This document shows, one piece after another, positions 4,842 through 31,330 of a stretch of 46,471 nucleotides of DNA. The stretch lies in the IMG/VR virus record IMGVR_UViG_2606217103_000006, one strand, 5' to 3'. The translations under genes were made by a program, and so were the position numbers. The DNA comes from a virus. Taxonomy: Duplodnaviria; Heunggongvirae; Uroviricota; Caudoviricetes. Position 1 is the stretch's first letter. Each line of letters begins with the position of its first letter. The notes below the pieces were generated by a model, which saw only the letters and a list, made by a program, of their open reading frames with translations, searched no databases and was not told where the DNA came from.

Positions 4842-5441
4842 TCAGAAACGGTATCCGATACCAACAATAAATGCATCCGTTCGCCAGTCGCCACTACCGG
4901 AACCTTCATAAGCAAGGTCAATGGTCACGGATTCGGTCGGGTTAAACTGCACGCCAGCCCCCCACGCCAGAGACGTGTTGCTGTGGCGACCGTCATCACT
5001 TCCGGTCAGCACATCGTGCGTTTTCCCCTTGTTGTCAGTTACGCGGAGATAATCCCCGGAGAAAGTCGACACACGGCTGTAAGCCACACCCGCCATCGAA
5101 TACGCGCTGAACCATTCATTCACGCGTACAGACGGCCCCGCCATCACGCTGAACCAGCGGTTACGCACGGAATCTTCATGCCAGCGGGTATCGCTGTAGC
5201 GCGTTTTTTGCTCATCCTCAGCATTGGCATAACTGAAGGACGTAATCAGCCCCAGCGCGTCCGTAAACTCATAACGGTATTTCACGTTAATCCCGTTCAG
5301 ATCATCACTACCGGGAACGTTCGTCGAGGCATGGAGATACCCCGCGCTCAGCGTGGACTGATGTTCTGCTGCACTCGCTGGCGTAGCAGCGGCGACCTGC
5401 CAGACTACTGCGGACAAAATAACAGCACATAATTTACGCAT
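4842..5441 (-). CDS. lom: outer membrane protein Lom (Ail/Lom family beta-barrel)
   Basis: 199 aa; signal peptide; C-terminal GYRF; position between J and stf as in lambda. Confidence 0.9.
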   Translation of the reverse strand: MRKLCAVILSAVVWQVAAATPASAAEHQSTLSAGYLHASTNVPGSDDLNGINVKYRYEFTDALGLITSFSYANAEDEQKTRYSDTRWHEDSVRNRWFSVMAGPSVRVNEWFSAYSMAGVAYSRVSTFSGDYLRVTDNKGKTHDVLTGSDDGRHSNTSLAWGAGVQFNPTESVTIDLAYEGSGSGDWRTDAFIVGIGYRF

Positions 5442-5464
5442 AATTACCTCTCGCTTTTCTGCAA

Positions 5465-5489
5465 TAAAAAAGGCGCCATTTCTGGCGCC
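5465..5489 (-). terminator. terminator-like hairpin between J and lom
   Basis: Minus strand GGCGCC-agaaat-GGCGCC followed by TTTTTTATT. Confidence 0.45.
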
Positions 5490-5509
5490 CGCATATGGGT
5501 TATGAAAAT

Positions 5510-8500
5510 TCAGCTAATCGTGATACCTGCTGTGGATTTCTTCATCACCACAACCAGCAAATCACTGATACTGGCTGTGGGATACCAGTCATTTACCAGC
5601 CACGCTGATACCGAAAACTCCAGCGTCATGTGACCGCGACCAGCAGGCATATCAATAACACCTGTATAAACCAGCGTATTATCCAGCGCGGTACGGTTAT
5701 AAATTTCAGCACCGTTTTTCTTCACTATCAGGCGGCATGACGAATAAATATCGTTATTCTCCCGCTCATGTTTAGCGCCACGAAACGCCACCGCGGGAAT
5801 AACAATCTGCCGGTCAAACGGCTGATCGTCATAAACCCTGACGGTAATGGTCCCTGATGGCCACCGCTCCGGTGCACGGGAGTCCCGGGGGAAAGCTTTG
5901 CCCACTGTTTTAACGAGATCGCCTTCAATCTGGTTCGCAGACAGTTTTCCCAGAACCCGACAGTTTTCATTTATCGTGACATTGTTGAGCGTCCCGGCGT
6001 TCGCATTCACACTGCCACTGATATCCGCATTTTTCGCCGTCAGTCGCCCGTCCGGTGTCAGGGAAAATGCCGGTGGATTTCCACCGCTGGTAATGGTGGG
6101 GGCCGTCAGGCGTTTCAGGAACACGTCGTTCATGAATATCTGATCGCCCTGACCAACAAACATCGGTTTTGTGTTGCCATTCGCAGGATTAACCATCGCA
6201 ATCCTGTCCGCCGCCAGCAGCACCTGACTCTGCATGCCGTCAGGGGTGTTCTCAATACCGGCACCAATACCCGCGATATAAAGGCGTCCGTCCTGCATCT
6301 GCTGCAGCTTCACAGCCCACATGCTGTTCAGGTTATTATTTGTATCAACCTGAACCTTCTGTATCTGCTGAATTGCCGCACTCTGGTCTTCCAGTTTCTT
6401 ATTGACGGTCTGCGTGATTTCATTGCTGACATCCGTAATGGACGTCCTGATTTCAGCCAGGTCAGGCGCAAGCTGACCGTTATCAATCTGCGTCCACAGC
6501 TCCTGAGCCAGATGGGTTTTCCCTATCTCGCCTTTGAAAAAATCCAGATAGCCGGATGCATCATCGCTCGCCCGACCGACGGCCTCCACAAATGCCGATT
6601 TGCCTACGGTGTTCACACTGCGGGTATAAAAGTAATAATCATGGCCCGGTTTGATATTGATACTGGCGGCTATCCAGTACAGCGCCGTACCAAGATAGCG
6701 GGCTGTGGTTTCAACCTGCCTGATATCCGCAATCCGCTTTTCCGAGAACCAGAACTCAAACTGTACCGTCGGATCATAAACCGCAAGATGCGGCGTGGCG
6801 GTTATCTGAAAATAGCCCGGCGTCAGCTCAATCCGCGACGGCGCTGCCGGTGCGGCGATCCGGAACAATACCGATGCCGGATCGCCCTGCTGTCCCCATG
6901 CATTTACCGCCCGGACTGTCAGCGTGTACCGCCCCAGCGCCAGCTGCGTGAAGCGATATGTGGTTTCCGTCGTCCGGGCCGTGCTGACCAACCGCTCACT
7001 GCCGTCGTCCGCTGCCACGGTCAGGCGCAGACTGAAGCGCACGCCCTTCACCACCCGCGGCGTGTCCCATTTAGCCTGCGCCAGATACTGGCCGTCAGCT
7101 GCGCTCACCTCCACCGTCAGGTGCTGTACTGCCGGTGGGATGACGCTGTTCAGGGAGCCTGACTGCGGCTCAAAGCGGGCACCGTTATCCACGATGGCTT
7201 CTTTTTCCGGTACGTGCTGCACCGCCGTGATGGCAAAGGTGCCGTCCGTGTTTTCCCGGATGGAGACACAGCGGAACAGGCGACGGCGCAGTGACGGCAG
7301 GGAGAGTCCCCACACCCCGTATGTCTCCACACCATCAGGCAGGGTACTGACCTGTATCCGGTCCGGCGCGGGGTGTTCGGTGATGTCCACACTCACCGGC
7401 TTACCGCTGCCGTTAATCAGGTTCACCGTGGCGGCACCGGTCTCCGGCAGGGTAACCTCACGGTCCAGCGTCAGGGTGCGGGTGGCAGCATCAATGGACA
7501 GGACACGTCCGCCGGTCAGGGTCCCGGCATAGTCATTATCACAGATTTCAATAATGTCACCGGGTGTGTGCCGCAGCCCCTGAGACCCGAGCGTGAAATC
7601 CACCGTCTGCGTTTCCAGCAGTTCGGTCTTTATCACCCACAGTCCGGCACGGTGGGCCTGACCGCGGCTGGTACAGCCGAACGCGTCCATCTTCAGCAGA
7701 TTGCGCCCGTAGCGCAGTATGGCTTCCGGGTCTTCCACCAGTTCCGTGGAGGTCTGCCAGCCGTTCTGCGGGTCGGTGTAATTCACCTCCACCGCCGTGT
7801 GCCGGTCCTTCAGGGCACTGAAGCTGTAGCGGAACCCCACGCCGTTATCATCCACCACCACATCGCTGTTGGTGTACGGCCACACCACATCCGACAGGCG
7901 GTCCTGAACAAACGTCAGCATCTGGCCGTTCCATACCGGCATACAGCGCATCGCCGAGCAGAAATCACTGAGAACATCCCACGCCTTACGCTGTTGTGCC
8001 AGGTACGCATTGAAGGTCATCCGCGGCTCGGTGCCCCCGAAGCCATCCGGCACCATCTGGTCGCAGTACTGCCCGATGGCATACAGCGCCCACTTGTCCA
8101 CATCCGCCGCCCCCAGACGTTTTCCCATGCCGTAGCGCGGGTGAGTCAGCATGTCCCACAGACACCAGGCCGGATTGTTGCTGTATGCCGGTTTCAGACT
8201 GCCGTCCCAGATACCACTGTACGTGCGTTTTTCCGGGTCATAGTTTGACGGCACCTGGATGATGCGACCGCGGATATGGTAGTTCACCGTCATCTGCTGA
8301 CCACCAAACTGCTCCGCATCCACCTGCATCCCCACAATGGCCGTGTTCGGGTAGCACTGTTTCACATCGATGATTTCGGTGTATGACGACCACAGCGTTC
8401 TGTTCTGCAGCTGGTCCGTGGTGCTGTCCGCCGTCTCCCTGACCATCCGGATGTTAAAGGGGCGGGGAGGCAGATTATCCAGAATCACCGAGGCCAGGAA

Positions 8501-9226: not shown

Positions 9227-9907
9227 TTATCCCTGTCGCCCGATAACCACGACCTTTCCGCCCCCGCCTTCATCACGGGTGCTGATGTCCTGGGATATAC
9301 GGCGGGAGCCAACCAGCATTTCCCCGTAAGGCACCGGCATCGGGTTCCCCTGGGCAATCATGTTATCCAGCGAGGAAAAGTACGTGTTCTGTCTGCCGTT
9401 ATCCGTTGCGCGGTAATCCGGTGTTTTTGCCTTCGGGGCCAGCATCTGGGCCACACCGCCCAGAATCATGCTGGCTCCAAGTGAAAACAGCATCGTGGTG
9501 GCAGAAAAACCACCGGCTGCCAGGGCTGAACCCCATAACGCCATTGATGCCCCGGCAGTGAAGAAAGAGCCCACGATGGCTGCCGCCCCCAACACAATCT
9601 GCAGTCCACCCTTTCCGGCCCCGGCCAGTCGCGGCACAATGTGGATGACCGTTCCCTCACCCAGCTGTTCGTGAAGGCGGGCGTACACCACCTCCGGTGC
9701 CGTGTCTTCACCGGCAATACGTATCTGGTACCAGCCTTCGTTCATCTGACGGCGAAAGCCCGGCATCTGCATCGACAGGGCGCGGATGGCTTCCGCTGCC
9801 GTGTTCACATACAGGCTGAGGCGGCGGCCAAATCGTTGCAAATCCCCGTGAAGGCAGATGTGTGCCAGTGGCGGTGACGCCAGACAGAATGCGTTCGTCG
9901 TTGCCAT
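9227..9907 (-). CDS. I: tail assembly protein I
   Basis: 226 aa; Gly/Ala-rich C-terminal half; overlaps K by 103 nt exactly as lambda I/K. Confidence 0.9.
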   Translation of the reverse strand: MATTNAFCLASPPLAHICLHGDLQRFGRRLSLYVNTAAEAIRALSMQMPGFRRQMNEGWYQIRIAGEDTAPEVVYARLHEQLGEGTVIHIVPRLAGAGKGGLQIVLGAAAIVGSFFTAGASMALWGSALAAGGFSATTMLFSLGASMILGGVAQMLAPKAKTPDYRATDNGRQNTYFSSLDNMIAQGNPMPVPYGEMLVGSRRISQDISTRDEGGGGKVVVIGRQG

Positions 9908-10548
9908 TTTTCGGAATACCTCTCCCGTTTACTCAGTTGTTCAGGAATATGGTGAAGCAGTTCACCGTTGCCGCAGTAAATGGCGGCATGATTAGCCACC
10001 GATGCGCCGAAGCAGCACAGCAGGATATCGCCCGGCTGTGCAGAGGACAGGGGCACCCGGTAAAAGCCGGTGACCGCCATATTGTCCAGGTACAGGTTCT
10101 GGCCGTTGCGCCACCAGTCATCCTCGCGATGAAAATCCGGCATATCAATTCCCGCCAGATGGTATGCATCCCGGAACAGCGTGTAACAGTCCGTCACCCC
10201 GTGCTCAAAGCGCCGTCCTGTCAGATGTGGCACACAGCGGAATTTATGAATTTCCCCCCGGCAGACCAGCCACCAGGGTAGTGCGCTTTTTATCTGCAGC
10301 CGCCGGTCAGCCTCGCTCAGCCAGGGCAGCTCACCGGGATGACTGTGGACCAGTGCCACAATCTCCCCCTGCATCTCTGCCCGCAGCCAGTCTTCCGGTG
10401 CGATACGAAAATACGCCTCCGGCTCTGCGGAAATATTCACACAAGGGATATACCGCTCCCCCTCCGGCGTGCTTATCACGAAGCCGCACGACTCCGCAGG
10501 CGCACACCGCCGGGCATGCGCCAGAATCGCTGATTCAGTCTGTGTCAT
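9805..10548 (-). CDS. K: tail assembly protein K (JAB/MPN plus NlpC/P60-like)
   Basis: HSHP JAB-type motif; start taken at internal ATG 10548 (MTQTESAIL); the longer track ORF would overlap L. Confidence 0.8.
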   Translation of the reverse strand: MTQTESAILAHARRCAPAESCGFVISTPEGERYIPCVNISAEPEAYFRIAPEDWLRAEMQGEIVALVHSHPGELPWLSEADRRLQIKSALPWWLVCRGEIHKFRCVPHLTGRRFEHGVTDCYTLFRDAYHLAGIDMPDFHREDDWWRNGQNLYLDNMAVTGFYRVPLSSAQPGDILLCCFGASVANHAAIYCGNGELLHHIPEQLSKRERYSEKWQRRTHSVWRHRHWHTSAFTGICNDLAAASACM

Positions 10549-10558
10549 AAACCGGGAT

Positions 10559-11257
10559 TTACTGCGAAAGTTTATTAATGGAAAGGAAACCGCCAAAATT
10601 GCCGACATTCCTGCGCAGTTCACACCCGCGCATGCACTTGCTGCATCTGTCCTTACGGATATCCGTGGTGGGTTTATCGAACTCATCCGCCACAGCCCCG
10701 CCCGTGTAACCACACTCATCAGAGCGGTAGGTCCACATACAGGTGTTCGCCAGCATGATACGACCGGGAAACTGAGCTCCGTCCGTCTCGGTCGGTGTGG
10801 CCAGCACAAACGAGGCCGTCATGGCTGTCAGCTGCGACATCTGCTCCACCACTCAGCGGTCGCTCAGCTCCTGCTCCGGGTCCGCTTCCGGATTGCCCGC
10901 CACAAAATTCACCGCATCCAGAAAACGGGCATACACCCGGCGGCGGACCACCGTGGCCCCCACCAGACTCTGCAGGTCTTCCGCCATCCCGGTGACAAGG
11001 CCGAACAGATTGGACACCGTCAGCGACGGTCTGGCACTGCTGCCTTTCCCGTTCATTTCAAAGCCGCTGCCATCAATCGGGTACGCCTCATACTTACGCC
11101 CCTGCCAGGTGACCGGCTCCCCTTTTTCATTCAGCTCATTACAGAAAAAATACCGCTCACCACCCTGTACCGTCAGGTCGATTTCCCAGAGTACCACCCG
11201 CGGTGACTGCTCTGACTTAACCGACTCGTTCAGACTTTCTTCGCGAATATCCTGCAT
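10559..11257 (-). pseudogene. L: minor tail protein L interrupted by an in-frame TGA (10853-10855)
   Basis: Two adjacent same-frame ORFs (134 aa + 97 aa, 231 aa total vs 232 aa for lambda L as I remember it) separated only by TGA at the position where lambda L, from memory, has Trp (TGG). Confidence 0.8.
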
Positions 11258-11586
11258 CAGTTCACCACCTGCTTAAACTCCGCGCTGAACTCAACGCGCA
11301 ACATCCCGACCCGCGCAGACCACCCGGCACAGGTCACCTTTATCTGCCGGTATGCATAGGGTGGCTTCCACAAAAATGCCTTCCAGCCACCGTGCTCTGC
11401 CAGAAACGACTCCAGCGCCGTGGCCTCCTCACGGGAGACAGACAGCGTCACGCTGTACGTTTTCAGGTCAGCGTTCAGCCCGGCAGGCGCACGCTGGGAA
11501 TAGCCATCACCAAAGCGCACCTCCCTGACGGAAGGAGCCGATGTCACATCCATCCCGGGTTTCACTTTCCAGCGGAAGGTTTTCAT
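11257..11586 (-). CDS. M: minor tail protein M
   Basis: 109 aa, same length and position as lambda M. Confidence 0.85.
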   Translation of the reverse strand: MKTFRWKVKPGMDVTSAPSVREVRFGDGYSQRAPAGLNADLKTYSVTLSVSREEATALESFLAEHGGWKAFLWKPPYAYRQIKVTCAGWSARVGMLRVEFSAEFKQVVN

Positions 11587-14156: not shown

Positions 14157-15008
14157 ATCTCACACCTCCCGGAATCCCCGCTGAAGCCATCATTAATGCG
14201 GCATCATCCACCATGACATCCGCCACATCCGCAGACGATAAAATATCGCGCCCTCCGTCCCCACCGAACCGGACGCCTCCGGCAAGTCCTGCCGCTTTCT
14301 GCATCAGCATTTTGTCCTCATCCGGCCTCTCCACCTGCTCTTCCTCATGCCGGGGGACAAGCAGACTGAAATCAGAGGGATGCATATCCGGATCGCAAAA
14401 AAACAGGCTGAGTACAGCGTACGTCAGCCCGGAAAAATGCATATCCAGCTGGGTATCCTGAAAATAATGCGTGCGGTAAAAACGGTGCCAGTCGGCATAT
14501 TCGGTGGATGTCATCCCGGCAAGCATGGCGCGCCAGTCGGGTCTCCCCATCTCACGCGCCAGTCTGAGGGCAAAGTTCAGCTCGCCGTCGAAGACTTTCC
14601 CGCAGAAAAATCATCATCAGTCAGCGTGTTATTTTTCGCCACTTCAGTAATATCAGTATCCGGACGAACAGCTTCGATCATCCCGGACAGGCACAACACC
14701 ACGTCTTCCGCCCGGGCAATGGCATCGGCAGGCCAGGTGGTGAGCACTTCCTGCTCTATCTTCATCACGGCCTCATTCATTGACGGTGACTGCGTTTTCT
14801 GTGGATGGTTATGCCACAGGGACATCGCCACCAGAAACGCGCCGGTTCTGACGAGATCTTCCACGCTTACCTGCAGGTTGCCGCAGGATTCTGCCTGTTC
14901 TGCACGCCGTTTCAGGAGGGCAAGATGCTCGATACGCTGCAGCGCAGACAATTCGGAAAGCGTGACAGACACACCGTTATATTCAAATTGTTCTGTTTTC
15001 AGAAACAT
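14137..15008 (-). CDS. T: tail assembly chaperone G-T fusion made by -1 programmed frameshift
   Basis: T frame is open from the slip site and reads KVFDGELNFALRLAREMGRPDWRAMLAGM...; verified by hand translation. Confidence 0.75.
14577..15008 (-). CDS. G: tail assembly chaperone G
   Basis: 143 aa ending ...SAGKSSTAS; lambda G-like. Confidence 0.85.
   Translation of the reverse strand: MFLKTEQFEYNGVSVTLSELSALQRIEHLALLKRRAEQAESCGNLQVSVEDLVRTGAFLVAMSLWHNHPQKTQSPSMNEAVMKIEQEVLTTWPADAIARAEDVVLCLSGMIEAVRPDTDITEVAKNNTLTDDDFSAGKSSTAS
14595..14601 (-). other. slippery heptamer G GGA AAG for the G/G-T -1 frameshift
   Basis: Plus strand ctttccc = minus strand GGGAAAG, in G frame as G|GGA|AAG. Confidence 0.8.
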
Positions 15009-22061: not shown

Positions 22062-22264
22062 AACCTCACTCCCAGCGGACGACGGCGACGGCGGGTTGTC
22101 CCCAGTACCGACTCCGCATCATTGATCGCCCGGTTAAGCTCATCCAGAGAAGCTGCCGTATATTCAATTCTGCGACCATCTTTCTGGACAGACACCACCC
22201 GTTTACCGGTTAATAAATCAAGGCGCGCCTGACGCAGCGCCTGCAGTTCAGCGACTGTAACCAT
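22058..22264 (-). CDS. W: head-tail joining protein W
   Basis: 68 aa as lambda W. Confidence 0.85.
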   Translation of the reverse strand: MVTVAELQALRQARLDLLTGKRVVSVQKDGRRIEYTAASLDELNRAINDAESVLGTTRRRRRPLGVRL

Positions 22265-24176
22265 TCACTCCTCCGGACAGCTTCGCTGCCAGTTCTTTAA
22301 GGGTTGGCCGGGTCGTCTCTTCTTCCCGGGATTTTGCCAGTACAGCCAGATCAAGCTGCCAGCGTTGCACGGACACACGTAATGCCGCGTAGGCATACAC
22401 CAGGCAGTCCAGCGCTTCGTTACGCCGCTTTTTGTTATCCCACAGCAGACGCATCTTTCCTTTTTCCCACTTCTCCACAAGCTCTTCCGCGACCAGTTGC
22501 TGCGCCTCTGTCTGCGAAAAAATCTCCGGATCATCAGGAAAACGGATGGCATACGACGTGGCTTCATCCGCAGGCGTGGGCTCGGCTTTCATACGGGCAT
22601 AGAGAATTTCTTTTGCGGTGTCCGTCCCCACTTCACACAGATAAACGCCCCGCTGATTGCGGGTTTTCGGCATGGTGATCACCGGCTTGCCATAGACAGA
22701 CGCGCCTTTTACCGGCAGCACACGGAAAACACCGTGTTTTTTTGACCTCTGGTAGACGATTTCACCATCGATCCCCCCGGTGTCCCAGCAGACACGGGAA
22801 ATGGTCATTTCGGTGCCATCCGCATGGCGGTATTTTTTGTTGATCGCCGCATCCACACGTAACAGCGTCTCTTCCTCATCGGGACGTCCCATAATGATGA
22901 TTTTATCCACCAGAAAGGCTTCCTCTCCCGGAGCCCATCCCCAGACATACATCTCAAAACGGTTTCGCTGCGAGTCAATGCCCGCCGTCAGATAAACCAC
23001 CCGGGCAGGCACCGCCGCCGTGTAATGAACAACCTTATCCATCAGTACCTGGTGATCGAGTTTTTCGCCCACGGCCTCTTCCCAGGTCTCGCCCAGCGTG
23101 GTGTTCACAAAGGTTTTCAGGCCGTTGGGATCTTTCAGTGCATCCAGCCAGTCATAGACAATCTGTACCCAGGTGGTGAACGGACTGTACGCCGTCCAGA
23201 TATGGAATGTGATGGAGCGCGGCGGCGGAATTTCATTATCCGCGGCGCTGAAAAACGTCAGACCGTCGCGGGTCCACATCCCCGTGTTTTCGCAGATCCA
23301 CCGCCCGTTGCTCTGGTCAAGCTCAGACTGATGGATCACGCAGCCATGATGTTCACAGAGGTAGAAAACGCTTTCGGGGCTGTCCTTCTCCCATTTAAGG
23401 CCAAAAGGCGTGGACTCATCGCCAAATTTCAGATACTGCGCCTCCCCACAGTGCGGGCAGGGCACATAAAAACGCATGAAATGCGCCGACTCGTTGGCCG
23501 CTTTTTCGATCTGGCAGGAGCCTTTTATTTTAGGCGTCGAGCCGCGAATGGATTTTGGCCATACCGAGCCCTCAATACGCTTATCCCCCAGCAGGGTTGG
23601 CGAGCCCTCTTTTTCGACATCCGGCTCGAACGAGGAAAGTTCGTCATAGCAGACCACGTCCACGGATTTTTCACGGTAGTTTTTTGCTGCCGCACCACCC
23701 AGGCACCAGAAGCCCACCCCCGATGAAAAGCGTTTCAGCGTGAGAGTATTGTCACGATGTTTACGACCCAGCCACGGGGAAAGATCTTTCAGGCATGGCA
23801 CGTCCCGAATCGTCGCCTCCACGTGAGACTTCATAAAATCTTCAGCGGCAGAATCCGTGGGCTGAAAAAGCAGACTGTTTCGGGATTTATGCTCAATAAA
23901 ATACCCGGCGACTCCCAGCAACATCTTTGTATAGCCAACACGGGCAGATTTAATCAGATTAACAGTGCGGATCTGATCATTCCCCATACTGTTCATGATG
24001 GCGATCTGGAACGGCAGCGTTTTCCATTCGCCGTCACCGTATGAGGATTCTTTCGGCAGATAATAATACTGGTCAGCCCATTCAACTGCCGTCATCGGTA
24101 CAACCCTGACCAGAGGCTGCAGCGCAACCGAAACGGCGGCCACCATATTATTCAGTTGTTGCTCTGATATATTCAT
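22248..24176 (-). CDS. A: terminase large subunit A
   Basis: Start at internal ATG 24176 (MNISEQQ...); TAVEWAD, ATPase and nuclease regions lambda gpA-like. Confidence 0.9.
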   Translation of the reverse strand: MNISEQQLNNMVAAVSVALQPLVRVVPMTAVEWADQYYYLPKESSYGDGEWKTLPFQIAIMNSMGNDQIRTVNLIKSARVGYTKMLLGVAGYFIEHKSRNSLLFQPTDSAAEDFMKSHVEATIRDVPCLKDLSPWLGRKHRDNTLTLKRFSSGVGFWCLGGAAAKNYREKSVDVVCYDELSSFEPDVEKEGSPTLLGDKRIEGSVWPKSIRGSTPKIKGSCQIEKAANESAHFMRFYVPCPHCGEAQYLKFGDESTPFGLKWEKDSPESVFYLCEHHGCVIHQSELDQSNGRWICENTGMWTRDGLTFFSAADNEIPPPRSITFHIWTAYSPFTTWVQIVYDWLDALKDPNGLKTFVNTTLGETWEEAVGEKLDHQVLMDKVVHYTAAVPARVVYLTAGIDSQRNRFEMYVWGWAPGEEAFLVDKIIIMGRPDEEETLLRVDAAINKKYRHADGTEMTISRVCWDTGGIDGEIVYQRSKKHGVFRVLPVKGASVYGKPVITMPKTRNQRGVYLCEVGTDTAKEILYARMKAEPTPADEATSYAIRFPDDPEIFSQTEAQQLVAEELVEKWEKGKMRLLWDNKKRRNEALDCLVYAYAALRVSVQRWQLDLAVLAKSREEETTRPTLKELAAKLSGGVNGYSR

Positions 24177-24654
24177 CCAGCAAATCCGGTAATTTATCCC
24201 CTGCCCGCGCACACTGATTTGCGCCCTTTGCAATAAGGGTTTTCAGATGGTCAATATGACGTGGCGTTAAATCCGGGAACTGTCGCTGCATGGATAACGG
24301 AATGGAATCAAGCGTACTGGACAATGCCATCGCCAGTTTGCTGAGGGCGAAAACGCAGAAGTCTGAATCGATGAGCTTACCTTCGGTTACCTGATTTTTA
24401 AGTTTTTGAGCTACAGCCTGTTCTTCTGTCAGTTCAGCTCTGGCCCGAAGCAGCCTTTCCTCCAGTTCTCCCCCGTCATCAGGTGTTCTCTGATTGTGTT
24501 GTCGCCGCTCGCGATCTATCTCCAGTACAGTTTTAACGTCATATAAAACTTCCCTCCCCCGACGTTCAACAGGAGGAACGCCCCATTTATCAAATGCCTG
24601 AACAGAGATACCGATGGAGGAGGCCATATCACTTTTATTCAATAAAAAGGCCAT
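24148..24654 (-). CDS. nu1: terminase small subunit Nu1
   Basis: Start chosen at ATG 24654 (MAFLLNKSDMASSIG..., SD GGAGAGGAG); overlaps A as in lambda. Confidence 0.8.
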   Translation of the reverse strand: MAFLLNKSDMASSIGISVQAFDKWGVPPVERRGREVLYDVKTVLEIDRERRQHNQRTPDDGGELEERLLRARAELTEEQAVAQKLKNQVTEGKLIDSDFCVFALSKLAMALSSTLDSIPLSMQRQFPDLTPRHIDHLKTLIAKGANQCARAGDKLPDLLDEYIRATTE

Positions 24655-24870
24655 CTCCTCTCCATAAGTCATCGATAAAAAGCGAAACAACAACCATGTG
24701 TTTTTGCAAAACCATTTGATATCATTGACATTTTTCGCATTGACGACATCAAAACACATCGTAAGGTTGTTGTATTTATTTTATTTTCACCTTACTTATC
24801 AATTAGATATACCAAACAATTAAACAACAACCACCCCCTCAAAAAATCTCATAAATAGTGAAAACGCGCG

Positions 24871-25105: not shown

Positions 25106-26173
25106 ATGAGTCAACATCAATATTATCCACAGCTGAAATGGAAGCCTGCTGAATATGAATCTCTGATGCTTTTAGATCAAACTACGCTCTCTGGTTTTAC
25201 TCCGATCATTACCATTCCAGACATAGACTGGGATTATGAAAACGAATGCTACAAGAAGAGTTTGAGTTCTTACTTATCTGACTTCGGTATTAACCTTGCG
25301 GCATCCTGGAAAGCCAATCGTCCTGTTTTGCTGGATGTTAAATATTTAGATAAACATGGTTCGAGCCGCCATCATCCTCTAGATATGTGTATCCAAGATG
25401 CTAGAGTAAATGGTAAGGAAATTATCCCTGTTGTTTCTCCCGCATATTCAACAAACTATATACATGCTGTTCAACGCAACTTAATCAATGGGCTCGCTAT
25501 ATCTATCACCCCCCAGACATGGCACCAATTCACAAGTCTGGTTAACCACTTAAATATTCATCCTAGTTTAATTGATGTAATCATTGATTTTGGAGATATT
25601 CAAAACGCAACTGATAGTTTAAAACAACAAGCATTAAGCATGGTCAACACATTATCAGGCCAAGCTCCGTGGAGAAACTTGATTTTATCTTCAACCGCAT
25701 ACCCGGCATCACAGGCAGGGATACCGCAACATCAAGTTCATCATATTCCGCGCCATGAATACGATCTTTGGATGTACGTAGTACAGAATTTTAGCAATGG
25801 AAGAACGCCAAGTTTTAGTGATTATCCCACCGCTAGCTCTACCATTACGAGCGTAGACCCACGCTTCATGTCTCAGTATGTCTCAGTGAGATATTCGAAC
25901 GATACCTCATGGATCTTTGTAAAAGGTACCGCAGTTAAAGGAAATGGATGGGGCCAAACTAAAAACTTATGTACTACCCTTGTTAGTTCGCCAGAGTATC
26001 AAGTCTTTGGCTCCAAATTTAGTTGGGGGGATGATTACATTTACCAAAGATCATTAGGCGCTAACAAATCTGGCGGCTCTAAAGAATGGCGTAAAGTTGC
26101 ACATACGCACCATATTACGTTAGTCGTGAGACAGCTTTATTGGTTGGCGCAGACTCAGCCTGCCAAGCCTTAA
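25106..26173 (+). CDS. uncharacterised 355-aa protein, cargo cassette gene 1
   Basis: Strong SD AAGGAG 7 nt upstream; AT-rich; no catalytic motif recognised. Confidence 0.7.
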   Translation: MSQHQYYPQLKWKPAEYESLMLLDQTTLSGFTPIITIPDIDWDYENECYKKSLSSYLSDFGINLAASWKANRPVLLDVKYLDKHGSSRHHPLDMCIQDARVNGKEIIPVVSPAYSTNYIHAVQRNLINGLAISITPQTWHQFTSLVNHLNIHPSLIDVIIDFGDIQNATDSLKQQALSMVNTLSGQAPWRNLILSSTAYPASQAGIPQHQVHHIPRHEYDLWMYVVQNFSNGRTPSFSDYPTASSTITSVDPRFMSQYVSVRYSNDTSWIFVKGTAVKGNGWGQTKNLCTTLVSSPEYQVFGSKFSWGDDYIYQRSLGANKSGGSKEWRKVAHTHHITLVVRQLYWLAQTQPAKP

Positions 26174-26735
26174 CTTTCCAGCCTACGCGTTTCTTTAAGG
26201 CTGTTCTGACTTCAGGCCTGAGATTCGCTATTGGAATATTTTCCGCAATAATATTCCATAACTCAAATCGGGGCTTGCTTTTGATTCCTTTGGAATAGCC
26301 CCATCGTTCAAGTACGTCGATACATTCATCTTTCCAAAGCAATTGAGCGAGCATCAATGTGTCATGGTTTCGATTAAGCTTTTCTCCACGCATGTGCTTT
26401 ATAAGAATGGCGCCTTTTGGCCCAACAGAAACCGTTTTAACGCCCCACCAACCTGGGATTAACTTTAATGCTCCCTCAAGGTGTTTCTCAGCTACGACAA
26501 GAGTAACCTTGTCCATTACAGAAGAATAATGCTTGATTTGAAGAGGCAAACGCTCCAAAGAGTCATATTCACTTTTGAGCTCGTACCCGTGTATAACACC
26601 ATTTATTACAGCAATGTCTGCTCTACTGGCGCCAAGGGATATGGAAAATTCATCGACCACAAGGCAGTCTGGATCTAAATGCGATTCTTTCAAAAGCTTA
26701 TGATGCACCGCGAACCTAACATCTTGATCTTTCAT
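26115..26735 (-). CDS. uncharacterised 206-aa protein with PD-(D/E)xK nuclease-like motif, cargo cassette gene 2
   Basis: RADIAV...GYELKSE arrangement (D ... E-x-K); SD TAAGGAG; 3' end overlaps gene 1 by 59 bp (convergent). Confidence 0.7.
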   Translation of the reverse strand: MKDQDVRFAVHHKLLKESHLDPDCLVVDEFSISLGASRADIAVINGVIHGYELKSEYDSLERLPLQIKHYSSVMDKVTLVVAEKHLEGALKLIPGWWGVKTVSVGPKGAILIKHMRGEKLNRNHDTLMLAQLLWKDECIDVLERWGYSKGIKSKPRFELWNIIAENIPIANLRPEVRTALKKRVGWKVKAWQAESAPTNKAVSRLT

Positions 26736-28880: not shown

Positions 28881-30749
28881 TTATGATGATGCTGGTGCAT
28901 TTATCTCCAGCACCAGACTTTCTATCTCAACGCCATACGCTGCATTTTTTGTAACATCCGTCAGCGTCAGCGCATTCAGCCCCAGTGTCAGACTGTCTTT
29001 TATGACCTGGAATGCCGGGCCAGCCACTCCATTCAGTTTCGGAGTAACCGTGGCACTGCCGGCGGTGAACACCAGCTCCAGCGTCTGCCAGTCGTTACCG
29101 TAATCGCCGAACTCCCCCAGCTTCGTGTTTCCGGCTTTCCTGTGATGCATCAGATTCACTCTGCCGTCAATGGTCTGAGTGAAGTAAGACATCAGGAACG
29201 GATTACCAGTACCCGTCATCGCCACATCATCAGGAACGGGAGCGTCCGTATACAGATAAATCCCCAGCCCGAACTGATTGTTGGTCAGTGCGCCTGAGAG
29301 GCGGAACTTACAGGTCAGTCTGCCGCCCTGTGTCAGCAGGGTAATTGCGTCATCCACCGGATGCATCAGGTACCAGGTTTTATTGCTCTGCTTGGTGATC
29401 TTAAATACACCCTCTGACAACTGAATTCCGCCATTCTTAATGCTCCAGCCCTGCGCAGCAGCATCTCCGGCTGTCGGCAACAGGGAGATTGTGCGTACGG
29501 ATGCATCTTCAGACGGCCCCGATGGCGTGTCGCCGCCGGGCGAGGGTTTGATTTCCGGTGCCTTACCACTAATGAAGGCTAAGGTGCGACCGGCTACGTT
29601 CAGAATAGCAGTTGCCATACGATCGGGAATAATGCCACGACGCGCCCATGAGCTGAAATGCGTCGGGCGATTTGATGATACCCAGTTTTTGTTCGTTCGG
29701 GATGCCGAACCGTAATAACCAGACCCGACAATATCAGGATCTTCTGACGGGTTGTTTGTCGGTGTATTAACTCCGCTACCATCGGTCATAAAGGGAACAA
29801 AATAAATCTGCTGGGATTCTTTACCTTTATATGCACCATATACCACTTCATATTGCGTACCGTGTTCTTGTTTCCACGCGTATGTCGTGTCGCCACAAAT
29901 CCAGGGGACTGATGCCGGACTTCCACCGTGACACTGCGCCGCCAGCCCGGCAAGGTCAGCACGGAACTGCTGTACCATTGCAAGAAATGCTGCTGGCTGC
30001 TGGGCGTAACTGGCATTCGTCATATCGAATTCCCCCTGCATCCAGCATATCGCCAGCAAAACGTTTTTCGGGTTTTTCTGCAATGCTGCCTTCGTGCGGA
30101 AAAGCAGATCCTGATATAACGGCTTACCCACTCCCCAGCGAGCCGAATCCTGACTGGCCCCCGTGGACTCGCTGAATGTCCCCTCCGTGCCCTTGGTGAA
30201 TGCCGAACCACCACGACAGCATGGTACCAGCAGGATCCCCGCATTATTAGGGATATACGGAAGCAGTTTTTTGGCAATATGTAAGCCCTGTCCGACACAA
30301 CCGTACTGCCCTTTGCTCAGGTCAGCCCGGGGATGGTTAATCGTACTCATATCCTGAACATCATGCAGACAATGGTCAGCAGGAATGATGTCGTTAAATA
30401 CGCATACTTCGCCACCGGGAGTCACTGTGTTACGACGGGCCAGTTGCTTAATGCGCGGATGGGGCGCATCGTATGAATCCGGAAGCGGAAGCCCTTCACC
30501 GTAAGCCATGGCATTGGACTGCCCGGCCAGTACGATGACGTAGTACCACTCCGGCTCAGTTGCACCACTGACGACCACATCACCTTCTGCTGCAATCGCC
30601 TGCATCAGGGTATAAGGGGTTATGGCCACCGGACTACCAAACGGCTGCCAGCCCTCTTTCAGTTTATGTGTCAGCTTTTCCGCAAGATCTGACGGCGACG
30701 CCGCCCTGACAACATCATAGTGTTTAAATGCCATGGTTCTTTCCACCAT
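28881..30749 (-). CDS. NanS-p-like sialate O-acetylesterase (DUF1737 N-terminus + GQSN esterase domain)
   Basis: 622 aa; LAGQSNAMAYGEG motif; same position as the esterase gene downstream of stx in Stx phages. Confidence 0.8.
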   Translation of the reverse strand: MVERTMAFKHYDVVRAASPSDLAEKLTHKLKEGWQPFGSPVAITPYTLMQAIAAEGDVVVSGATEPEWYYVIVLAGQSNAMAYGEGLPLPDSYDAPHPRIKQLARRNTVTPGGEVCVFNDIIPADHCLHDVQDMSTINHPRADLSKGQYGCVGQGLHIAKKLLPYIPNNAGILLVPCCRGGSAFTKGTEGTFSESTGASQDSARWGVGKPLYQDLLFRTKAALQKNPKNVLLAICWMQGEFDMTNASYAQQPAAFLAMVQQFRADLAGLAAQCHGGSPASVPWICGDTTYAWKQEHGTQYEVVYGAYKGKESQQIYFVPFMTDGSGVNTPTNNPSEDPDIVGSGYYGSASRTNKNWVSSNRPTHFSSWARRGIIPDRMATAILNVAGRTLAFISGKAPEIKPSPGGDTPSGPSEDASVRTISLLPTAGDAAAQGWSIKNGGIQLSEGVFKITKQSNKTWYLMHPVDDAITLLTQGGRLTCKFRLSGALTNNQFGLGIYLYTDAPVPDDVAMTGTGNPFLMSYFTQTIDGRVNLMHHRKAGNTKLGEFGDYGNDWQTLELVFTAGSATVTPKLNGVAGPAFQVIKDSLTLGLNALTLTDVTKNAAYGVEIESLVLEINAPASS

Positions 30750-30994: not shown

Positions 30995-31330
30995 ATGAAG
31001 TGGATTGTGATTGATACAGTTATCCAGCCATCATGCGGAATATCTTTTTCAGTCATATGGAGTAAAATAAAATTAATAATCTGGTATCAATCGGATGCTT
31101 TCTTACCTCCTGAAAGTATATTTACACTGACTCACACAGGCATCATGCTCAATAACAAAGTGCTACCTGTAACCATTTACAACGTAGTGCCATTCAATAA
31201 AACATTCTGGAATTTAATCAAAAACAGCCAGGAATGCCCTACAAATACAGATAACGTATTGAATGAATGCTTTAATAACCGTTGCACTCTGCAAATATGT
31301 CCTTATGGACTAAAACAACAAAGTCCATAA
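30995..31330 (+). CDS. hypothetical Cys-rich small protein (111 aa), AT-rich cargo
   Basis: RBS AGGAAA 6 nt upstream; 6 Cys; opposite strand to late genes; no recognised family. Confidence 0.4.

What the first reader, a model, noticed from the sequence alone, without database searches (positions are those of the whole stretch)
10853..10855. Minor tail protein L is split by a single in-frame TGA
The two halves of L are adjacent and in the same frame; only TGA separates them, at the codon where lambda L (from memory) has Trp. Either the prophage is tail-defective, or L is made by low-level UGA read-through by tRNA-Trp, which could suffice for a protein needed in few copies. Apart from this codon the morphogenesis block looks intact.
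Basis: partly seen in the sequence, partly recalled or inferred. Interest (0 to 1): 0.5.

Follow-up and report, generated by a model that had tools for sequence, protein, structure and literature searches.

The report
Nonsense mutation in prophage tail gene L
One G-to-A change has turned a conserved tryptophan codon of a lambda-like prophage's tail-tip gene L into a stop codon in a single gut E. coli clone, and this looks like an ordinary, recent gene-killing mutation, not a special decoding device.

Summary
Gene L lies on the minus strand at 10559-11257. Its codon 135 (10853-10855) is TGA, and it separates two same-frame ORFs of 134 and 97 codons. These ORFs match the two halves of one Pfam model (Phage_tail_L) and align end to end with lambda gpL, whose residue 135 is Trp.

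The nearest E. coli copies (99.7% identical) have TGG. An 81-nt probe carrying TGA had no exact match among 4444 copies in complete E. coli genomes. The allele was found only in colonies from one stool sample of one Tanzanian child (strain 3-020-07_S1).

The stop falls inside the N-terminal hub domain. It removes the whole Fe-S domain, including all four ligand cysteines. In 45 diverse full-length homologues this column is always-aromatic-type (W/Y/F in 44 of 46 sequences), and none is split here.

I found no suppressor tRNA, no SECIS-like or stimulatory RNA structure, and no conservation of the stop. The other 20 morphogenesis genes and the lysis and early genes are intact, as expected for a recent mutation.

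Best reading: a recent TGG-to-TGA knockout that leaves the prophage tail-defective. Weak Trp-tRNA read-through cannot be excluded, but nothing supports it. Ordinary; low interest.

The parts
10559..11257 (-). Minor tail / tail-tip hub gene L (699 nt, 232 codons plus TAA), interrupted at codon 135. It is 77% identical in protein to lambda gpL.
10853..10855 (-). In-frame TGA at codon 135. The changed base is window 10853 (+ strand T; C in relatives, i.e. TGG to TGA on the coding strand).
   Evidence: There were 0 exact matches of an 81-nt TGA probe among 4444 places in complete E. coli genomes. In IMG/VR the TGA 24-mer hit 1 contig, from the same strain, against at least 120 for the TGG 24-mer. 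Metagenome and species-representative genome scans gave 0 hits.
10856..11257 (-). N-terminal ORF of 134 codons. It is an incomplete HDI beta-sandwich hub domain and lacks the Fe-S domain.
   Evidence: PF05100 positions 3-103. Domain limits 1-166 and 154-232 are from PMC10721106.
10559..10852 (-). Remaining 97 sense codons plus TAA, starting with GTG directly after the TGA. They encode the end of HDI and the Fe-S domain, with Cys173, 182, 205 and 212 all conserved.
   Evidence: The Cys ligands are named in PMC10721106.
10838..10840 (-). ATG at codon 140, with GGAG 3 nt upstream. It starts the 93-aa ORF that gene callers and GenBank annotate as a separate 'phage minor tail protein L' (KDZ20450.1, KDZ22511.1). 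It is a possible reinitiation site; this is inference only.
10775..10775 (-). The only other difference from the nearest TGG alleles: synonymous GCG to GCT (Ala161).
11257..11586 (-). Gene M (109 aa). Its TGA overlaps the L start codon (TGATG), so L translation is coupled to M.
9805..10548 (-). Gene K (247 aa, JAB/NlpC-P60). Its ATG lies 10 nt after the L TAA with no Shine-Dalgarno-like sequence, so its translation may depend on ribosomes finishing L. This is inference.

Best explanation
This is a real, recent, clone-private nonsense mutation in the tail-tip gene L of an otherwise intact lambda-like prophage. A C-to-T change on the + strand at 10853 converts TGG (Trp135) to TGA. Translation of L, which is coupled to M, stops after 134 residues. 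[quoted passage not shown] By inference, an induced lysogen would make DNA-filled heads but few or no functional tails, and the prophage has taken the first step towards becoming a defective prophage. Shown here: the sequence change, its polarity relative to relatives, its restriction to one clone, the conservation of the residue and the domains lost. Inferred: loss of tail assembly and infectivity.
For: The nearest alleles have TGG and differ otherwise at one synonymous site. No exact TGA probe match was found in 4444 copies from 1665 complete-genome records. The TGA 24-mer hit only the source strain in IMG/VR, against at least 120 hits for the TGG form, and had 0 hits in metagenomes and species-representative genomes. 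Every contig with the allele traces to E. coli 3-020-07_S1_C1/C3, separate colonies from one stool sample (naming scheme in PMC6222053). The other apparent 134-aa and 93-aa products are contig-end truncations, an N-gap scaffold that has TGG, or frameshifted assemblies. Residue 135 is Trp in lambda gpL and in a Pseudomonas F2-pyocin homologue. It is W16/Y15/F13 among 46 sequences (45 diverse full-length representatives plus lambda L), and these run through this point as one chain. The gpL HDI domain spans 1-166 and the Fe-S domain 154-232 with Cys173/182/205/212, and gpL is a trimer in the tip (PMC10721106). All four Cys lie downstream of the stop. The two TGA-bearing contigs are identical over 14.5 kb, and all other late, lysis and early genes are intact. 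This fits a very recent event. Defects of this kind are common in lambdoid prophages of E. coli (PMC2669165).
Against: No phenotype is known. UGA is the leakiest stop codon in E. coli: about 2% at 37 C and 4% at 25 C in K-12, read by Trp-tRNA (PMC10570021). Read-through would recreate exactly wild-type gpL, of which only 3 copies per virion are needed, so 'dead' may really mean 'strongly attenuated'. An otherwise intact prophage is also what would be seen if the allele were tolerated.
Confidence: 0.85

Rival explanations
1. Tolerated leaky stop. Near-cognate Trp-tRNA reads the UGA at a low rate and restores authentic full-length gpL. Because only three copies per virion are needed, the prophage still yields some infectious particles and remains a viable, attenuated phage. 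This need not be a selected feature.
For: UGA read-through by Trp-tRNA in competition with RF2 is about 2-4% in K-12 reporters (PMC10570021). gpL is a trimer in the virion (PMC10721106). Read-through would insert the ancestral residue. The rest of the prophage is intact.
Against: The host is a wild isolate. All non-K-12 E. coli carry RF2 Ala246, which terminates better, and read-through of the tested nudL UGA was undetectable with it (PMC5373646). The RNA around and downstream of the stop (window 10780-10870) folds no better than shuffled sequence (z=+0.74). The stop is not conserved anywhere else. The truncated fragment would be in large excess over full-length protein and might interfere with assembly (inference).
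Confidence: 0.1
2. Rescue in trans. Another lambdoid prophage in the same genome supplies a compatible gpL, or repairs the codon by recombination, so this element stays mobile despite the stop.
For: E. coli genomes that carry L have a median of 2 and up to 13 copies. Morphogenetic defects of lambdoid prophages are complemented by co-resident prophages in O157 Sakai (PMC2669165). The read-derived contigs break within M and K. The two colonies' contigs diverge in the 3' end of J, lom and the tail fibre. Both observations suggest a second related tail module in the genome.
Against: No second L copy of this genome was seen here. The read-derived contigs run through the TGA without a branch, so no near-identical TGG copy is present. 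Compatibility of a diverged gpL is unknown.
Confidence: 0.1
3. Split gene. Ribosomes terminate at UGA and reinitiate at the adjacent GUG (codon 136) or at AUG140 (GGAG 3 nt upstream). The resulting N- and C-terminal polypeptides assemble into a working two-piece gpL.
For: The stop and a start codon are directly adjacent, and an SD-like GGAG precedes AUG140. Gene callers predict the 93-aa ORF as a gene.
Against: The break is inside the HDI beta-sandwich (residues 1-166), not at the domain boundary (PMC10721106). It hits a conserved strand-like motif (aromatic 135, I/V 137, E 138). None of the 45 diverse full-length homologues is split here, and the short database entries are frameshifted or chimeric artefacts. 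The allele is one mutation away from an intact gene.
Confidence: 0.02
4. Sequencing or assembly error: the true codon is TGG.
For: It is a single-base difference from relatives.
Against: The same base appears in two separate isolate assemblies and in two contigs assembled independently from raw SRA reads, with no branch at the site.
Confidence: 0.02
5. Dedicated recoding: selenocysteine insertion, or a phage-encoded opal suppressor tRNA.
For: None, apart from the presence of UGA and of tRNA genes in the prophage.
Against: The only tRNAs in the window are Arg(UCG) and Met/Ile(CAU). There is no SECIS-like hairpin after the UGA. The ancestral residue is Trp, not Cys or Sec.
Confidence: 0.005

Closest known systems
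Bacteriophage lambda gpL (tail tip protein L; PDB 8IYK/8IYL/8K35/8XCG/9E7M; Pfam PF05100)
   Same: It has the same length (232 codons), 77% identity, the same M-L-K-I-J gene order, the same Trp135 position and the same four Fe-S cysteines.
   Different: Here codon 135 is a stop, so the gene as written encodes only the first 134 residues.
Defective lambdoid prophages of E. coli (e.g. Sp prophages of O157 Sakai, PMC2669165)
   Same: It is a lambda-like prophage carrying a point defect in a morphogenesis gene, which co-resident prophages might complement.
   Different: Only one defect is visible in the 46 kb window. The Sakai prophages mostly carry several defects. This one looks like the very first step of decay.
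Classical leaky opal (UGA) nonsense mutants and basal UGA read-through by Trp-tRNA in E. coli
   Same: It is a TGG-to-TGA change, and near-cognate decoding would restore the wild-type residue.
   Different: Read-through has not been measured here. The host is not K-12 and should terminate UGA more efficiently.
Programmed UGA read-through such as the Qbeta A1 protein (from my own knowledge, not checked here)
   Same: It is a UGA inside a phage structural reading frame that Trp-tRNA could decode.
   Different: In programmed cases the stop is conserved and both products are functional. Here the stop is private to one clone, and the short product lacks essential domains.

Membership tests
Lambda gpL / Phage_tail_L (PF05100) | Sequence match to the family over the full length | tested here: met
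   The N-terminal ORF matches profile positions 3-103 and the C-terminal ORF positions 109-206. The alignment with lambda gpL covers 1-232, E=3e-125.
Lambda gpL / Phage_tail_L (PF05100) | Four conserved cysteines that bind the [4Fe-4S] cluster (lambda C173, C182, C205, C212) | tested here: met
   Cys is present at 173, 182, 205 and 212 of the conceptual read-through protein (ligands from PMC10721106). All four lie downstream of the stop.
Lambda gpL / Phage_tail_L (PF05100) | Position in the tail module between M and K-I-J | tested here: met
   The gene order H-M-L-K-I-J-lom matches annotated relatives.
Lambda gpL / Phage_tail_L (PF05100) | One uninterrupted reading frame encoding both domains | tested here: not met
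   TGA at codon 135. The locus is therefore a disrupted member (pseudogene) of the family.
Prophage pseudogene by nonsense mutation | Close relatives carry a sense codon at the site, and the stop is derived | tested here: met
   The 99.7%-identical alleles have TGG. There were 0 of 4444 exact TGA probe matches. The column is aromatic across the family.
Prophage pseudogene by nonsense mutation | Narrow, clonal distribution of the stop | tested here: met
   The allele occurs only in isolates 3-020-07_S1_C1/C3 and the matching SRA and IMG records.
Prophage pseudogene by nonsense mutation | Loss of function (no tails, no infectivity) | not testable with these tools
   This is inferred from the loss of part of HDI and the whole Fe-S domain. 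It needs induction, EM and plaque assays.
Programmed stop-codon read-through | Stop codon conserved among homologues | tested here: not met
Programmed stop-codon read-through | Stimulatory downstream RNA structure or context | tested here: not met
   The 91 nt around and after the UGA fold at -27.6 kcal/mol against a shuffle mean of -30.0 (z=+0.74). The context is UGA-G, and I did not verify published context rankings.
Programmed stop-codon read-through | Measurable read-through giving a functional long product | not testable with these tools
   This needs a reporter assay or a western blot in the native strain.
Selenocysteine UGA | SECIS hairpin immediately 3' of the UGA | tested here: not met
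   No significant structure was found. The ancestral residue is Trp.

The most novel reading that the evidence does not exclude
The UGA is tolerated and kept. Low-level Trp-tRNA read-through supplies just enough authentic gpL (3 copies per virion) for the prophage to persist as a deliberately low-yield phage. The stop would act as a throttle on virion production that benefits the lysogen.
Probability: 0.03. Interest if true: 0.45.

Novelty: already known. Interest (0 to 1): 0.1.

Why it matters
It matters little beyond annotation. The two adjacent 'minor tail protein L' CDSs in the GenBank records of E. coli 3-020-07_S1_C1/C3 should be one pseudogene. The prophage should be scored as probably tail-defective despite looking complete, which is relevant to tools that call prophages 'intact' from gene content. 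It is a clean example of the first hit in prophage decay, with one nonsense codon and everything else untouched. It could serve as a natural test of how much UGA leakiness or help from other prophages suffices for a low-copy virion protein.

Tried and rejected
1. Recurrence of the allele. Exact look-ups of the 134-aa and 93-aa products at first seemed to give extra loci (L005, L007, L011, L009, L012-L015, L018-L021). On inspection, all were one of the following:
- contigs ending or starting at that point;
- a scaffold gap of Ns with TGG retained (L011);
- frameshifted low-quality assemblies.

2. Natural split. A phmmer search with the N-fragment against 1.84 billion representatives returned some proteins of about 130-140 aa. 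Their tails are out-of-frame or chimeric, and none ends cleanly at residue 134.

3. Suppressor tRNA. Only tRNA-Arg(UCG) and tRNA-Met/Ile(CAU) are present in the window.

4. SECIS or a stimulatory structure. None was found.

5. Domain-boundary split. This was rejected because the published domain limits place residue 135 inside HDI.

6. Structure prediction of the read-through protein.

7. Literature search for the assembly and run accessions. It found nothing. The strain identity came instead from protein record names.

8. Published ranking of UGA-N contexts in E. coli. I could not retrieve it, so no claim is made about UGA-G.

Full report
**Observation.** The coding strand is the minus strand. 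Window 10853-10855 reads TCA on the + strand, which is TGA in the gene. Translating 10559-11257(-) gives 134 residues, one stop, 97 residues and then TAA, all in one frame. That makes 232 codons, the length of lambda L. The 134-aa ORF matches Pfam PF05100 (Phage_tail_L) profile positions 3-103 (E=1.7e-48). The 97-aa remainder matches positions 109-206 (E=1.3e-36). With Trp restored, the protein aligns 1-232 with lambda gpL (PDB 8iyk_L, E=3e-125; 178/232 identical), and lambda Trp135 falls on the stop.

**Is the base real, and where does it come from?** The window is 100% identical over 20.4 kb to JNRQ01000006.1 (GCA_000704765.1). The same TGA is present in JNRP01000032.1 (GCA_000704745.1). It is also present in two contigs assembled independently from SRA runs SRR1186460 and SRR1186795, which run through the site without a branch. 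Protein records name the strains E. coli 3-020-07_S1_C1 and _C3. Under the naming scheme of PMC6222053, these are separate colonies from one baseline stool sample of one Tanzanian child. The base call is therefore sound, but the evidence comes from a single clone.

**Polarity and distribution.**
- The closest complete-genome alleles (99.7% identical, mostly ETEC and commensal strains) have TGG. They differ otherwise only by a synonymous GCG/GCT at Ala161.
- An 81-nt probe centred on the TGA found 4444 places in 1665 complete-genome records, and none was an exact match.
- In IMG/VR the TGA 24-mer hit one contig, of 45189 bp, the same length as the JNRP contig. The TGG 24-mer hit at least 120.
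- Scans of metagenome contigs and of species-representative genomes gave no TGA hit.
- Other database entries that looked like the same 134-aa or 93-aa products are contig-end truncations, an N-gap scaffold with TGG, or frameshifted assemblies.

The stop is therefore derived, recent and private.

**What the stop removes.**
- In the lambda virion structure, gpL is a trimer. [quoted passage not shown]
- Its C-terminal domain (154-232) binds a [4Fe-4S] cluster through Cys173, 182, 205 and 212 (PMC10721106).
- Codon 135 lies inside HDI, not at a domain boundary. All four cysteines are conserved here and lie downstream of the stop.
- In an alignment of 45 diverse full-length representatives (205-260 aa) plus lambda L, the column is W16/Y15/F13, followed by conserved I/V137 and E138. 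All of these proteins run through the region as one chain.
- The short representatives are frameshifted or chimeric artefacts, not natural N-only genes.

**Surroundings.**
- I compared the window with the PGAP-annotated proteins of a close relative (CP058874). All 20 other morphogenesis genes (Nu1, A, W, B, C, D, E, FI, FII, Z, U, V, G, T, H, M, K, I, J, Lom) are full length in the window, with no stop or frameshift. L is the only one with an internal stop.
- The canonical G-T slippery site GGGAAAG is present.
- The lysis cassette, Q, RusA, the replication-region genes, the RacR/YdaS/YdaT immunity region, dicB and ydfD are also intact relative to CP144928.
- The window ends inside the early-left operon, so int and xis were not seen.
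- The two TGA-bearing contigs are identical for 14.5 kb. They differ only from the 3' end of J onwards.

A prophage that is intact apart from one nonsense codon is what a very recent mutation would produce. It does not by itself argue that the allele is tolerated.

**Recoding possibilities.**
- The window encodes only tRNA-Arg(UCG) and tRNA-Met/Ile(CAU), so there is no opal suppressor.
- The RNA around and downstream of the UGA folds no better than shuffled sequence (z=+0.74), so there is no SECIS-like or stimulatory element.
- Basal UGA read-through by Trp-tRNA is real. It is about 2% at 37 C and 4% at 25 C in K-12 reporters (PMC10570021). It would regenerate exactly wild-type gpL.
- Those figures come from K-12, whose RF2 carries the weak Thr246 variant. 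Other E. coli lineages have Ala246, which terminates better, and read-through of the tested nudL UGA was undetectable with it (PMC5373646). The host here is a wild gut isolate.
- Read-through is therefore possible, but probably well below 1%. It would have to compete with a large excess of truncated fragment.
- Termination-reinitiation at the adjacent GUG, or at AUG140 (GGAG 3 nt upstream), could yield a separate C-terminal piece. A two-piece protein broken inside a beta-sandwich is unlikely to work.
- K starts 10 nt after the L stop and has no Shine-Dalgarno sequence. Premature termination in L might therefore also lower K. This is inference.

**Most likely mechanism.** A C-to-T transition on the + strand at 10853 (TGG to TGA) knocked out L in the recent ancestor of this clone. 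On induction the prophage should excise, replicate, package and lyse, but fail at tail-tip assembly. That would give few or no infectious particles unless a co-resident lambdoid prophage supplies a compatible gpL. Such help is documented for defective prophages of O157 Sakai (PMC2669165). Breaks of the read-derived contigs within M and K, and the divergent J 3' ends in the two colonies, hint at a second related tail module in this genome. No second L was seen.

**Comparison with the known.** The locus is a disrupted member of the lambda gpL / PF05100 family, in the standard M-L-K-I-J context. As a phenomenon it is a prophage pseudogene, which is a very common thing. It fails the defining features of programmed read-through (conserved stop, stimulatory context) and of selenocysteine decoding.

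**Verdict.** Novelty: already known kind. Interest: about 0.1. The most novel reading still open is a tolerated UGA acting as a throttle on virion yield, with a probability of about 3%.

Noticed in passing
window 37376-38170 (+) and 38154-38870 (+): A eukaryote-like Ser/Thr protein kinase (PF00069, E=1e-31) overlaps a PP2C-type phosphatase (PF13672, E=1e-10). The pair is inserted in the early region on the strand opposite to its neighbours. It has no counterpart among the genes of the otherwise closest relative CP144928, which has ImmA/HTH genes in this part of the early region. From memory it resembles the phage 933W Stk exclusion kinase. It may be a superinfection-exclusion or defence module.
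   Followed up: partly
window 25106-26173 (+) and 26115-26735 (-): A 'Beta protein' (PF14350, E=8e-56) and an sce7726-family protein converge between the terminase/cos end and the lysis cassette. This is a moron-like insert of unknown function shared with relatives.
   Followed up: partly
window 24148-24759 (-) and the 5' end of 22248-24233 (-): The small terminase is of the Nu1 type (PF07471) but only about 29-30% identical to the TerS of relatives whose head and tail genes are 93-100% identical. There is a mosaic joint at Nu1 and the N-terminus of A.
   Followed up: partly
L003 versus L004 (window about 4850-6760): Two colonies from the same stool sample carry prophage contigs that are identical for 14.5 kb, TGA included. 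They then diverge in the 3' end of J (1158 versus 1098 aa), lom and the tail fibre gene. This is either recombination with a co-resident prophage or an assembly chimera.
   Followed up: partly
window 32279-32438 (-): tRNA-Arg(UCG) and tRNA-Met/Ile(CAU) genes lie between the DNA methyltransferase gene (32479-33537) and the IraM and NanS-type esterase genes, as in Stx-type lambdoid phages. Neither can read UGA.
   Followed up: yes
window 28881-30749 (-) and 30995-31330 (+): A SASA/NanS-p-type carbohydrate esterase (about 618 aa) and an IraM anti-adaptor homologue are carried as prophage cargo downstream of Q.
   Followed up: no
window about 14577-14600 (-): The canonical lambda G-T -1 frameshift heptamer GGGAAAG is conserved near the end of G.
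   Followed up: partly
L005 (GCA_025140375.1) and L007 (GCA_047629955.1): Two unrelated assemblies have contigs ending exactly at ...CGCTG, two bases into codon 135 of L. This is most simply a selection artefact of looking up an exact 134-aa product among the many partial L proteins in its 1691-member cluster, which have many different lengths. A fork in the assembly graph at this base cannot be excluded.
   Followed up: partly
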